Made by a program: the position numbers and the translations under genes. A stretch of 12,369 bases of DNA from a virus (lineage: Duplodnaviria; Heunggongvirae; Uroviricota; Caudoviricetes), in the IMG/VR virus record IMGVR_UViG_2698536477_000001. One strand, 5' to 3'. Position 1 is the stretch's first letter. Each line of letters opens with the position of its first letter. The notes under the pieces are model-generated. The model saw only the letters and a list, made by a program, of their open reading frames with translations, made no database searches and was not told where the DNA came from. This document shows, piece after piece, positions 3,797 through 6,916 of the stretch.

Positions 3797-4120
3797 ATGG
3801 CAAAGAATTTTGTAGAAGAAGGAAAAACGGTGGCGATTGTTGCCAGTGCAGCCATCAGCAGCGGAGATCTGGTGCAGGTGGGCGATGTTTTTGCGGTGGC
3901 GCTGACCGATATTCCACAGGGTGAAACAGGCGACGGCATGACCGAAGGTGTGTTTATGCTGCCTAAGCTGAAAACGGATGACATGAAAACGGGTAAGAAG
4001 GTTTATCTGAAGTCCGGAAAAGTTCAGCTGACTAACAGCGGCTCTGATCCGCTGGTCGGGGTTGTCTGGGCAGATGCCGGAACCAGTGCAGAAGAAGTGC
4101 CGGTAAAACTCAATGTCTGA
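3797..4120 (+). CDS. DUF2190-family small head protein (predicted capsid decoration/cement-type protein), 107 aa
   Basis: ATG 3797 has a GGAG Shine-Dalgarno at 3787-3790. The motif pattern ...GDLVQVGDVFAVALTDIPQGETGDGMTEGVFMLPK...GKKVYLKSGKV... matches the conserved DUF2190 pattern usually encoded next to phage capsid genes. The ORF-track start at 3752 is an upstream in-frame extension without an RBS. Confidence 0.7.
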   Translation: MAKNFVEEGKTVAIVASAAISSGDLVQVGDVFAVALTDIPQGETGDGMTEGVFMLPKLKTDDMKTGKKVYLKSGKVQLTNSGSDPLVGVVWADAGTSAEEVPVKLNV

Positions 4121-4388
4121 TCCCTTTTCCCGGCTGGCAGCGCGTATGGATGCTATCACGGTCAGAAAGATGGGAAAGACAGCCTCGATTAATGATGTCG
4201 ATATGACTGTGATCCCGGGAGAAACACTGGCAGAGCTGAATGCTCTGTCCGGACCTGCGGTCTCTCTGGTGGTGTTTTCTTCGGGATACCGCCCACGGCG
4301 CGGGGATCGCGTTGTTTATGACGGACAACAATGGACGGTCACACGGCATGAACGTTTTAACGGTAAGCCAATGATCTTTATTGAGTAA
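4113..4388 (+). CDS. Small putative head-tail joining / head completion protein, 91 aa (positionally equivalent to lambda FII)
   Basis: ATG 4113 overlaps the preceding stop (ATGTCTGA), indicating translational coupling. Size and position between head and Z-U-V tail genes fit a connector protein. Function is assigned by position; family resemblance is weak. Confidence 0.5.
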   Translation: MSDPFSRLAARMDAITVRKMGKTASINDVDMTVIPGETLAELNALSGPAVSLVVFSSGYRPRRGDRVVYDGQQWTVTRHERFNGKPMIFIE

Positions 4389-6131: not shown

Positions 6132-6152
6132 CAGGACGATACTCATCATTTG

Positions 6153-6175
6153 CCCCGGTTATCCGGGGCTTTTTT
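6153..6175 (+). terminator. Candidate intrinsic terminator downstream of the major tail gene
   Basis: CCCCGG-TTAT-CCGGGG perfect 6-bp GC stem at 6153-6168, followed by C and TTTTTT at 6170-6175, 22 nt after the V stop. Confidence 0.6.
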
Positions 6176-6188
6176 GCAGGTGGAGAAC

Positions 6189-6578
6189 ATGATGTTTCTG
6201 AAACAGGGCACGTTTAATTATGAAAAGCAGTCCGTGGTGCTCAGTGAGCTGTCCGGGCTGCAGAGAATTGAATATCTGGCGTTTGTTCAGCAGCGAACGG
6301 CAAAGTTTGATGCCGAAGAGGGAGAACTGCCGGAGGCTGAACGACAGATTGCTTTTCTGCGGATGGGGATGGATATCAATGCCTGGCTGGTTTCCCGCTC
6401 ACTGTGGAATGCGGAACAGTCTCAGGATGTTGAGACGCTTTGCGCATCCGTTATTACAACATGGTCGTATGATGCCCTGGGAGCGGGGGCGGAGATGGTT
6501 CTGTCGCTGAGCGGTATGGGAGTCATTGAGAATGCCGGGGATTTGGAGCATGAGGTGCTGACGCCGGAAAAGTCCTGA
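6189..6578 (+). CDS. G: Tail assembly chaperone, lambda gpG homologue (129 aa from ATG 6189; ATG 6192 equally possible)
   Basis: GGAG Shine-Dalgarno at 6183-6186. Shares MFLK...V.LSELS.LQRIE.LA..., LW and EQEVLT-type elements with lambda gpG as remembered. The ORF-track start at 6150 lies inside the terminator hairpin and is unlikely. Confidence 0.88.
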   Translation: MMFLKQGTFNYEKQSVVLSELSGLQRIEYLAFVQQRTAKFDAEEGELPEAERQIAFLRMGMDINAWLVSRSLWNAEQSQDVETLCASVITTWSYDALGAGAEMVLSLSGMGVIENAGDLEHEVLTPEKS

Positions 6579-6916
6579 CGCGGGAAATGCAGTTTGTCAT
6601 GCGGCTTGCCCGGGAGTTCCGGCGGGCAGACTGGCGGCGGATGCTGTCGGAAATGTCGGCCACTGAGCTTGGTGAGTGGGGCGATTATTTCCGGATGCAG
6701 AGCTTCAGTGATGTGTGGATGGATGCGCAGTTTGCCTCGCTGAAGGCATTGATCGTGAGAATGGTGTCCGGTAGCAGTGATGCTGCGGTGGCTGATTTCA
6801 GCCTTTTACCGGAAGAGAACGGGATACCGGAGCGAACGGACGAAGAACTGATGCATCTTGGGGAAGGTATTTCCGGAGGTGTGCGTTATGGACCAGATAG
6901 CCAACCTGGTCATTGA
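6554..6916 (+). CDS. T: T segment of the tail assembly chaperone gpGT, expressed only as a -1 frameshift extension of G (the ATG at 6587 is probably not an independent start)
   Basis: An ORF in the -1 frame begins just before the G stop and ends overlapping the start of the tape measure gene, the conserved lambda G/G-T architecture. No Shine-Dalgarno precedes ATG 6587. Confidence 0.8.
   Translation, partial: GADAGKVLTREMQFVMRLAREFRRADWRRMLSEMSATELGEWGDYFRMQSFSDVWMDAQFASLKALIVRMVSGSSDAAVADFSLLPEENGIPERTDEELMHLGEGISGGVRYGPDSQPGH
6566..6572 (+). other. Candidate -1 programmed ribosomal frameshift site linking G to T (heptamer G GAA AAG)
   Basis: The T frame is -1 relative to G and is open only from 6554 (TGA 6551-6553), so the shift must occur between 6554 and the G stop at 6576-6578. 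The only slippery-looking sequence in that interval is ccGGAAAAGtcc. Confidence 0.6.

What the first reader, a model, noticed from the sequence alone, without database searches (positions are those of the whole stretch)
6554..6578. G-T -1 frameshift probably uses a non-canonical slippery sequence (G GAA AAG)
The G/G-T arrangement is conserved and T is open in the -1 frame only from 6554, so the shift must occur within 25 nt. The lambda heptamer G GGA AAG is absent; the only candidate is ccG GAA AAG tcc at 6566-6572. The A-site Lys tRNA can re-pair on AAA, but the P-site Glu tRNA would have to re-pair on GGA with a middle-position G-U mismatch. Either slippage is single-tRNA (A-site only), or efficiency is set differently from lambda, which would change the G:GT ratio needed for tail assembly.
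Basis: partly seen in the sequence, partly recalled or inferred. Interest (0 to 1): 0.5.

Follow-up and report, generated by a model that had tools for sequence, protein, structure and literature searches.

The report
Known N15-type G-T frameshift site
This is the ordinary tail-chaperone G/GT ribosomal frameshift of a lambda-like E. coli prophage, using the heptamer G GAA AAG, which differs from lambda's G GGA AAG but is the commonest variant among the relatives sampled here and is already annotated as the slip site in phages N15 and LLS.

Summary
G (6192-6578) ends CTG ACG CCG GAA AAG TCC TGA. The -1 frame (T) opens at 6554 after TGA 6551-6553 and runs to 6916. The only in-register slippery candidate in the 25-nt overlap is G_GAA_AAG at 6566-6572.

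It is not a sequencing error. The tail sequence is identical in 87 of 87 close relatives, and the locus occurs in 1848 of 5426 complete E. coli genomes and in 17 phage records (mEp460, cdtI, Ayreon and others).

The same heptamer sits at the homologous site in Gifsy-1, Gifsy-2, Fels-1, phi80, mEp213, HK225, mEp237, LLS and N15. The N15 and LLS GenBank records annotate GGAAAAG as the -1 slip site. Of 335 intact loci sampled, 248 have GGAAAAG and 79 have GGGAAAG.

Published dnaX mutagenesis shows that a GAA P-site codon before A_AAG still gives 20% frameshifting, against 57% for G GGA AAG.

I found no conserved stimulatory structure or Shine-Dalgarno-like element. ATG 6587 is not conserved in relatives.

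The parts
6152..6175 (+). Intrinsic terminator-like hairpin plus T-run between the major tail gene V and G
   Evidence: GCCCCGG-TTAT-CCGGGGC followed by TTTTTT. The same site is annotated as a terminator in Ayreon and mEp460, and N15 annotates a putative one after its gene 13.
6192..6578 (+). Gene G, tail assembly chaperone (zero-frame product). An alternative start lies at ATG 6189.
   Evidence: Pfam PF06894 Phage_TAC_2, E = 7.4e-40. RefSeq annotates 'phage tail assembly chaperone G' at the equivalent coordinates.
6554..6578 (+). G/T overlap: the only stretch where both the 0 frame and the -1 frame are open
   Evidence: TGA at 6551-6553 closes the -1 frame upstream, and TGA at 6576-6578 ends G.
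6566..6572 (+). Slippery heptamer G_GAA_AAG (Glu codon in the P site, Lys codon in the A site), the site of the -1 shift
   Evidence: It is the only in-register A_AAG in the overlap. It is invariant in 87 of 87 close relatives. It is present at the homologous site in 248 of 335 loci. N15 and LLS annotate it as the slip site.
6572..6916 (+). T segment read in the -1 frame after the shift. GT fusion = join(6192..6572, 6572..6916), 241 aa from ATG 6192 (242 aa from ATG 6189).
   Evidence: Pfam PF06223 Phage_tail_T, E = 5.1e-15. E133 and F136 of the fusion are invariant, and E133 is encoded upstream of ATG 6587.
6587..6589 (+). ATG used by database annotation as an independent T start; probably not a real start
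   Evidence: The equivalent codon is CTG or CTT in Gifsy-1, Fels-1, Gifsy-2 and L185. Only GGGAA lies 2 nt upstream, which is too close to act as a Shine-Dalgarno sequence.
6888..9953 (+). Gene H, tape measure protein, the partner of G/GT. Its start overlaps the end of T.
   Evidence: Pfam TMP_2, TMP_4 and Tape_meas_lam_C. RefSeq start as in L003.

Best explanation
A small fraction of ribosomes translating G shift back one nucleotide on G_GAA_AAG (6566-6572) and continue in the T frame. This makes a G-T fusion (...LTPEK-VLTREMQF...), while most ribosomes stop at UGA 6576 and make G. The driver is the single E. coli tRNA-Lys (anticodon mnm5s2UUU), which pairs better with AAA than with AAG. The P-site tRNA-Glu (anticodon mnm5s2UUC) re-pairs on GGA with G-C, G.U and A.U pairs, that is, one middle-position wobble and no outright mismatch. 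No RNA stimulator seems to be required. As in lambda, G and GT would then act together as chaperones that load the tail tube protein onto the tape measure protein. Shown here: the anatomy, the homology and the nucleotide-level conservation. Inferred: that the shift occurs, its efficiency, and that both tRNAs slip.
For: The gene order V-G-T-H-M-L-K-I and the Pfam families Phage_TAC_2, Phage_tail_T and TMP_2 match the lambda tail module. T is open only in the -1 frame from 6554, and G_GAA_AAG is the sole in-register A_AAG in the overlap. The heptamer is invariant in 87 of 87 relatives at 92-100% identity. It occupies the aligned Lys column (K128, invariant) in clades 34-60% identical, while the flanking linker residues vary. 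In the census, 248 of 335 loci have GGAAAAG and 79 have GGGAAAG, and each clade keeps its own heptamer. Heptamer position 1 is G in 76 of 78 distinct contexts, against 45-65% conservation at nearby third positions. The N15 and LLS records annotate GGAAAAG as the -1 site, and Gifsy-1 and Gifsy-2 annotate T as part of a frameshift product. Experimental precedent in E. coli, in the dnaX context: A GAA AAG 20%, G AAA AAG 20%, G GGA AAG 57%, A AAA AAG 81% (Tsuchihashi and Brown data tabulated in PMC6787027 Supplementary Table 3). A_AA.G is the most shift-prone tetramer (PMC4066793). Residues conserved in the -1 frame lie upstream of ATG 6587, and that ATG is not conserved.
Against: No protein-level evidence for a GT fusion exists for this phage group in anything I could retrieve. 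G_GAA_AAG itself was not among the measured dnaX variants; only A_GAA_AAG was. A_AAG tetramers without a stimulator were barely above background in one reporter system (0.147% against 0.112%), and I found no conserved stimulator here. The efficiency could therefore be lower than lambda's roughly 4%. Rare relatives carry G_GCA_AAG, A_GAA_AAG or G_GCA_AAA-TAG, so P-site re-pairing is not absolutely required.
Confidence: 0.85

Rival explanations
1. Same site and same product, but only one tRNA slips. Either the A-site tRNA-Lys shifts alone on A_AAG, or tRNA-Lys shifts once it is in the P site while the next codon UCC waits for its tRNA. On this view the upstream G_GA contributes nothing.
For: The constant element across all variants is A_AAG or A_AAA. 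P-site codons GCA and A_GAA occur in a few relatives (L211, L230, L181-184). A_AA.G functions as a tetramer motif in E. coli and in IS elements. In the dnaX context, A ACA AAG, A AUA AAG and A GAA AAG still give 20-29%.
Against: Heptamer position 1 is G in 76 of 78 distinct contexts even though it is a synonymous third-codon base, and GAA is never GAG. That pattern is hard to explain if only A_AAG mattered. The variants are rare, 6 of 335, and some may be defective prophages.
Confidence: 0.25
2. T is translated on its own from ATG 6587 (initiation, or re-initiation after the UGA at 6576), as database annotation implies, and no frameshift is needed.
For: RefSeq and several phage records annotate T as a separate 109-aa CDS starting at this ATG. 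The ATG lies 8 nt after G's stop codon.
Against: The ATG is CTG or CTT in Gifsy-1, Fels-1, Gifsy-2 and L185. No properly spaced Shine-Dalgarno sequence is present. Conserved -1-frame residues (K128, E133) lie upstream of it. The in-register heptamer is conserved across the family. In lambda, gpT is made only as the GT fusion (PMC5009743).
Confidence: 0.04
3. The heptamer is an artefact: either a sequencing error for GGGAAAG in a homopolymer-rich stretch, or RNA polymerase slippage on the A run rather than ribosomal slippage.
For: The A4 run is a short homopolymer. One base distinguishes this heptamer from lambda's.
Against: The sequence is identical in independent complete genomes, in 17 phage records and in 87 of 87 viral or genomic contigs. 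Replacing it with GGGAAAG without an indel would be a substitution, not a homopolymer length error. By established knowledge, transcriptional slippage needs runs of about 7 or more A or T, and here there are four.
Confidence: 0.01

Closest known systems
Phage N15 genes 14/15 (and phi80, LLS, HK225, mEp237, mEp213) -1 frameshift at G GAA AAG
   Same: The heptamer is identical and in the same register at the aligned Lys codon near the 3' end of a Phage_TAC_2 gene. T lies in the -1 frame and is followed by the tape measure gene. The N15 and LLS records annotate it explicitly as the slip site.
   Different: GT protein identity to the window is only about 35-37%. In those phages the G stop lies 5 codons after the heptamer and the overlap is 37-85 nt. 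Here the stop lies 1 codon after it and the overlap is 25 nt.
Salmonella prophages Gifsy-1, Gifsy-2 and Fels-1 G/T
   Same: These are the closest clade outside E. coli (54-60% GT identity). They share the same ACG/ACA CCG GAA AAG YCC TGA tail, with one codon between the heptamer and the stop. The Gifsy records describe T as part of a frameshift hybrid.
   Different: The overlap is 31 nt rather than 25 nt, and there is no ATG at the position of window 6587.
Phage lambda G / G-T frameshift at G GGA AAG
   Same: The gene family, gene order, direction of shift (-1), A-site codon AAG and tRNA-Lys are the same, and no obvious stimulatory structure is present. The frameshift is expected to be low-level and to set a high G:GT ratio, 30:1 in lambda.
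   Different: In lambda the P-site codon is GGA (tRNA-Gly), which re-pairs on GGG with only a wobble change. Here it is GAA (tRNA-Glu), which re-pairs on GGA with a middle-position G.U pair. Lambda's motif is the canonical X_XXY_YYZ form, and this one is not.
E. coli dnaX A AAA AAG and its mutant series
   Same: The A-site Lys AAG-to-AAA slip is the same. The mutant A GAA AAG shows that tRNA-Glu in the P site is tolerated (20%).
   Different: dnaX relies on an upstream Shine-Dalgarno-like element and a downstream stem-loop for high efficiency. Nothing comparable is conserved here.

Membership tests
Lambda-type tail assembly chaperone G/GT programmed -1 frameshift | A G-family chaperone gene lies between the major tail tube gene and the tape measure gene | tested here: met
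   PF06894 Phage_TAC_2 (E = 7e-40) is flanked by Phage_TTP_12 (V) and TMP_2/Tape_meas_lam_C (H). The full lambda-like module is present.
Lambda-type tail assembly chaperone G/GT programmed -1 frameshift | A T-family ORF lies in the -1 frame, overlaps the 3' end of G, and lacks a conserved start of its own | tested here: met
   PF06223 Phage_tail_T in the -1 frame, open from 6554. ATG 6587 is not conserved in relatives.
Lambda-type tail assembly chaperone G/GT programmed -1 frameshift | A slippery sequence lies in register inside the overlap and is conserved among relatives | tested here: met
   G_GAA_AAG at 6566-6572. 87 of 87 close relatives and 248 of 335 family loci carry it.
Lambda-type tail assembly chaperone G/GT programmed -1 frameshift | A GT fusion protein is made at a few percent of G and is required for tail assembly | not testable with these tools
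   This needs a western blot, mass spectrometry or a reporter assay, and phage genetics.
Canonical X_XXY_YYZ tandem-slippage heptamer | Positions 1-3 are identical and positions 4-6 are identical | tested here: not met
   Positions 1-3 are G, G, A. Only positions 4-6 (AAA) satisfy the rule.
Z_ZZN tetramer motif (A_AA.G class; Sharma et al. 2014) | [quoted passage not shown] | tested here: met
   A_AAG at 6569-6572 is in the G register. The motif hierarchy is from PMC4066793.
N15-type G_GAA_AAG slip site | The identical heptamer at the homologous alignment column of G | tested here: met
   L009 702-708 is GGAAAAG and is annotated 'slippery sequence for -1 translational frameshift'. Lys K128 is invariant in alignment A1.
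dnaX/IS-type stimulated frameshift signal | A conserved upstream Shine-Dalgarno-like element and/or a downstream stem-loop or pseudoknot at 5-9 nt | tested here: not met
   Fold z-scores are 0.01 and -0.64 against shuffles. The upstream 30 nt and the Shine-Dalgarno-like GAGGTG are not conserved. No covariation analysis was run, so a weak element cannot be excluded.

The most novel reading that the evidence does not exclude
Both tRNAs on G_GAA_AAG (tRNA-Glu and tRNA-Lys) carry mnm5s2U34. The most novel reading not excluded is that this heptamer makes the G:GT ratio doubly dependent on the host's tRNA thiolation state. A second part of this reading is that, in the mEp460/Gifsy clade, the stop codon one codon downstream (AAG UCC UGA C) tunes the efficiency. 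That would give this very widespread prophage family a host-state-sensitive tail-assembly control distinct from lambda's.
Probability: 0.12. Interest if true: 0.35.

Novelty: already known. Interest (0 to 1): 0.15.

Why it matters
The practical value is mostly for annotation. This G/T pair is present in about a third of complete E. coli genomes (1848 of 5426). The records inspected here annotate it as two separate genes, with T starting at a non-conserved ATG, rather than as G plus a joined GT product. The data also give a clean natural example of a non-X_XXY_YYZ heptamer held under nucleotide-level selection. Frameshift predictors restricted to canonical heptamers will miss such sites. No new biology is implied beyond what is established for lambda and annotated for N15.

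Tried and rejected
(1) Sequencing error: rejected, because the tail sequence is identical in 87 of 87 contigs, in 17 phage records and in independent complete genomes.

(2) Other slip sites in the 25-nt overlap: I inspected all six in-register heptamers. Only 6566 (G_GAA_AAG), and the overlapping P-site reading A_AAG_UCC at 6569, allow any re-pairing.

(3) Downstream stimulatory structure: folds of 6573-6660 and 6520-6700 are no more stable than shuffles. An 8-bp inverted repeat, CGCCGGAA at 6562-6569 and TTCCGGCG at 6616-6623, includes the slip site itself. It is explained by the conserved EFRR codons and is absent in Fels-1 and N15.

(4) Upstream Shine-Dalgarno-like GAGGTG (6553-6558): it is not conserved. 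mEp460 has GAGGCG and the Gifsy phages have none.

(5) Independent T start at ATG 6587: not conserved.

(6) Literature search for 'GGAAAAG' plus frameshift found nothing relevant. Xu et al. 2004 and Ravin et al. 2000 are not held. The claim of prior knowledge therefore rests on the GenBank feature tables.

Full report
**What is in the sequence.** The window is the head-tail module of a lambda-like E. coli prophage. Pfam scans identify a portal, a ClpP protease-capsid fusion, a cement protein, Z, U, tail tube V, G, T, tape measure H, and M, L, K, I.

G (ATG 6189 or 6192 to TGA 6576-6578) ends CTG ACG CCG GAA AAG TCC TGA. The -1 frame carries TGA at 6551-6553 and is then open to TGA 6914-6916. 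The two frames therefore overlap for 25 nt, 6554-6578.

GGAAAAG lies at 6566-6572 in the register G_GAA_AAG. No other in-register heptamer in the overlap allows re-pairing. Lambda's GGGAAAG is absent from the overlap.

**Is it more than chance, or an error?** The motif by itself is unremarkable. GGAAAAG occurs 5 times in the window against 1.9 expected. In-register A_AAG occurs 11 times in 3979 codons. That gives about a 1.6% chance (my arithmetic) that one falls in the six in-register positions of the overlap.

The stronger evidence is comparative. The 771-bp G-T segment is found at 95% identity or more in 17 phage records, including Ayreon, cdtI, mEp460 and Tritos. It is found in 1848 of 5426 complete E. 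coli genomes. Among 87 contigs whose GT is 92-100% identical, the tail CCG GAA AAG TCN TGA is invariant. A sequencing error is excluded.

**The same heptamer across the family.** I extracted the 3' ends of G from 18 annotated phage or genome records.
- G_GAA_AAG sits in register inside the G/T overlap in Gifsy-1, Gifsy-2, Fels-1, phi80, LLS, mEp213, N15, HK225 and mEp237.
- Lambda, Turner and the Stx2a phages have G_GGA_AAG.
- VT1-Sakai and an Stx1 phage have A_AAA_AAG.

In the protein alignment of the predicted fusions (34-60% identity to the window), the Lys at the slip site is invariant. The preceding residue follows the heptamer (E, G or K), and the surrounding linker is variable.

Three further scans of viral contigs gave a census of 335 intact loci. 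My queries bias the sampling, but each clade keeps its own heptamer.

| Heptamer | Loci |
|---|---|
| GGAAAAG | 248 |
| GGGAAAG | 79 |
| GGCAAAA followed directly by TAG | 4 |
| AAAAAAG | 2 |
| GGCAAAG | 1 |
| AGAAAAG | 1 |

Among 78 distinct 58-nt contexts, heptamer position 1 is G in 76. This base is the synonymous third base of the preceding Pro, Ala or Val codon. Third positions 3, 6 and 9 nt further upstream are only 45-65% conserved. The selection is therefore on the nucleotide heptamer, not on the protein.

**Already annotated.** The N15 record AF064539 carries a misc_feature 'slippery sequence for -1 translational frameshift' at 10027-10033, which reads GGAAAAG. The LLS record PQ299149 carries 'minus-one programmed translational frameshift site GGAAAAG' together with a joined CDS. 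The Gifsy-1 and Gifsy-2 records describe T as part of a frameshift hybrid.

The PRFect paper lists a 'twofour' (XXYYYY) class among motifs recurring in annotated phage frameshifts. It also notes that a tRNA with anticodon CUU can re-bind GGA if G:U pairing is allowed (PMC10885494).

By contrast, the Ayreon, mEp460 and RefSeq E. coli records inspected for this exact sequence annotate T as a separate gene.

**Mechanism.** In E. coli both tRNAs on this heptamer carry mnm5s2U34 ('CUS' for GAA and 'UUS' for AAG in PMC6787027 Supplementary Table 3).
- After a -1 shift the A-site tRNA-Lys moves from AAG to AAA. This change was fitted as energetically favourable (-2.9 to -4.6 kJ/mol).
- The P-site tRNA-Glu moves from GAA to GGA. 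It keeps G-C at position 1 and A.S at position 3, and changes A.U to G.U at position 2.

Direct experimental precedent comes from the Tsuchihashi and Brown dnaX series, as tabulated in that supplement.

| Heptamer (dnaX context) | Frameshifting |
|---|---|
| A AAA AAG | 81% |
| G GGA AAG | 57% |
| A GAA AAG | 20% |
| G AAA AAG | 20% |

A GAA AAG suffers both a position-1 A.C and a position-2 G.U change, fitted jointly at 8.5 kJ/mol. G GAA AAG suffers only the latter. I therefore infer that its intrinsic efficiency lies between that of A GAA AAG and that of lambda's heptamer, roughly a third to about equal to lambda's. With lambda at about 4% (PMC3296357) and a G:GT ratio of 30:1 (PMC5009743), this predicts on the order of 1-4% GT. 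That figure is an inference, not a measurement.

**Stimulators.** Sharma et al. found A_AA.G to be the best tetramer, but barely above background without a stimulator and 5.6% with a pseudoknot (PMC4066793). I found no stimulator here.
- Folds downstream of and around the site are no better than shuffles (z = 0.01 and -0.64).
- The upstream 30 nt are unalignable between clades.
- The Shine-Dalgarno-like GAGGTG at 6553-6558 is lost in mEp460 and the Gifsy phages.
- An 8-bp inverted repeat that includes the slip site is accounted for by the conserved EFRR codons and is not conserved in Fels-1 or N15.

**One tRNA or two?** The few variants G_GCA_AAG, A_GAA_AAG and G_GCA_AAA-TAG show that the Lys tetramer is the irreducible core. 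The near-invariance of position 1 and of GAA (never GAG) argues that P-site re-pairing is also under selection. I favour tandem slippage, but I cannot exclude single-tRNA slippage. Both give the same protein.

**Independent translation of T.**
- ATG 6587 is replaced by CTG or CTT in Gifsy-1, Fels-1, Gifsy-2 and a more distant contig.
- It has no properly spaced Shine-Dalgarno sequence.
- Invariant -1-frame residues (the slip-site Lys, then Glu 133) are encoded upstream of it.

The database practice of starting T there is an annotation convenience.

**Comparison and verdict.** Functionally and by membership this is the lambda-type G/GT tail assembly chaperone frameshift. Its slip site is the N15-type heptamer rather than the lambda-type. 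It fails the formal X_XXY_YYZ definition, meets the A_AAG tetramer definition, and is identical to a site annotated decades ago.

The only clade-specific feature is geometry. The G stop lies one codon after the heptamer (AAG YCC TGA), not five, which gives a very short overlap. I have no evidence that this matters.

Novelty: already known. Interest is low, apart from the point that a site present in a third of complete E. coli genomes was not annotated as a frameshift in the records I inspected.

Noticed in passing
window 4172-4178 (ORF 4113-4388, Pfam Gifsy-2 family): A canonical lambda-type heptamer G_GGA_AAG lies in register inside this small head-tail gene. The -1 frame closes 6 codons later, so a shift would only truncate the protein. 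It is probably incidental. I did not check whether it is conserved.
   Followed up: partly
window 6152-6175: An intrinsic terminator-like hairpin (GCCCCGG TTAT CCGGGGC plus T6) lies between V and G. The same site is annotated as a terminator in mEp460 and Ayreon, and N15 annotates a putative one after its gene 13. It may lower G/T/H expression relative to the tail tube gene.
   Followed up: partly
window 6562-6569 and 6616-6623: A perfect 8-bp inverted repeat, CGCCGGAA / TTCCGGCG, has a 5' arm that includes the first four bases of the slip site. It is present in Gifsy-1 and Gifsy-2 but broken in Fels-1 and absent in N15. The fold is not more stable than shuffles.
   Followed up: partly
L181-L184 (IMG/VR contigs), about 796-805: A sister clade (50-53% identity to Gifsy-2 GT) ends G with CTG GCA AAA TAG. 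This is G_GCA_AAA abutting the stop codon, and it occurs in four distinct sequences. It looks like a different 'shifty stop' solution for the same frameshift.
   Followed up: no
window 6587-6916; RefSeq and GenBank records L001-L003: T is annotated as a free-standing CDS from ATG 6587, or from a later start in Ayreon, in the RefSeq E. coli, mEp460 and Ayreon records inspected. None has a joined GT feature. The locus occurs in 1848 complete E. coli genomes.
   Followed up: yes
L019 (JAEWTL010000010.1) and L025 (JAGTSE010000010.1): Metagenome-assembled genomes labelled 'Bacillota bacterium' and 'Proteobacteria bacterium' (soil) carry this E. coli prophage G-T at 98% and 93% protein identity. This suggests mis-binning or contamination.
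   Followed up: no
hit H90, MW057783.1 'Campylobacter phage CJLB-4': This record matches the query with the same identity (35.6%), E-value and bit score as the lambda record and at similar coordinates, and it has a lambda-sized genome (48.4 kb). It may be a lambda contaminant rather than a Campylobacter phage.
   Followed up: no
window 6888-6916: The tape measure gene H start (ATG 6888, as in RefSeq) overlaps the last 29 nt of the T frame. GT termination and H initiation are therefore interleaved.
   Followed up: no
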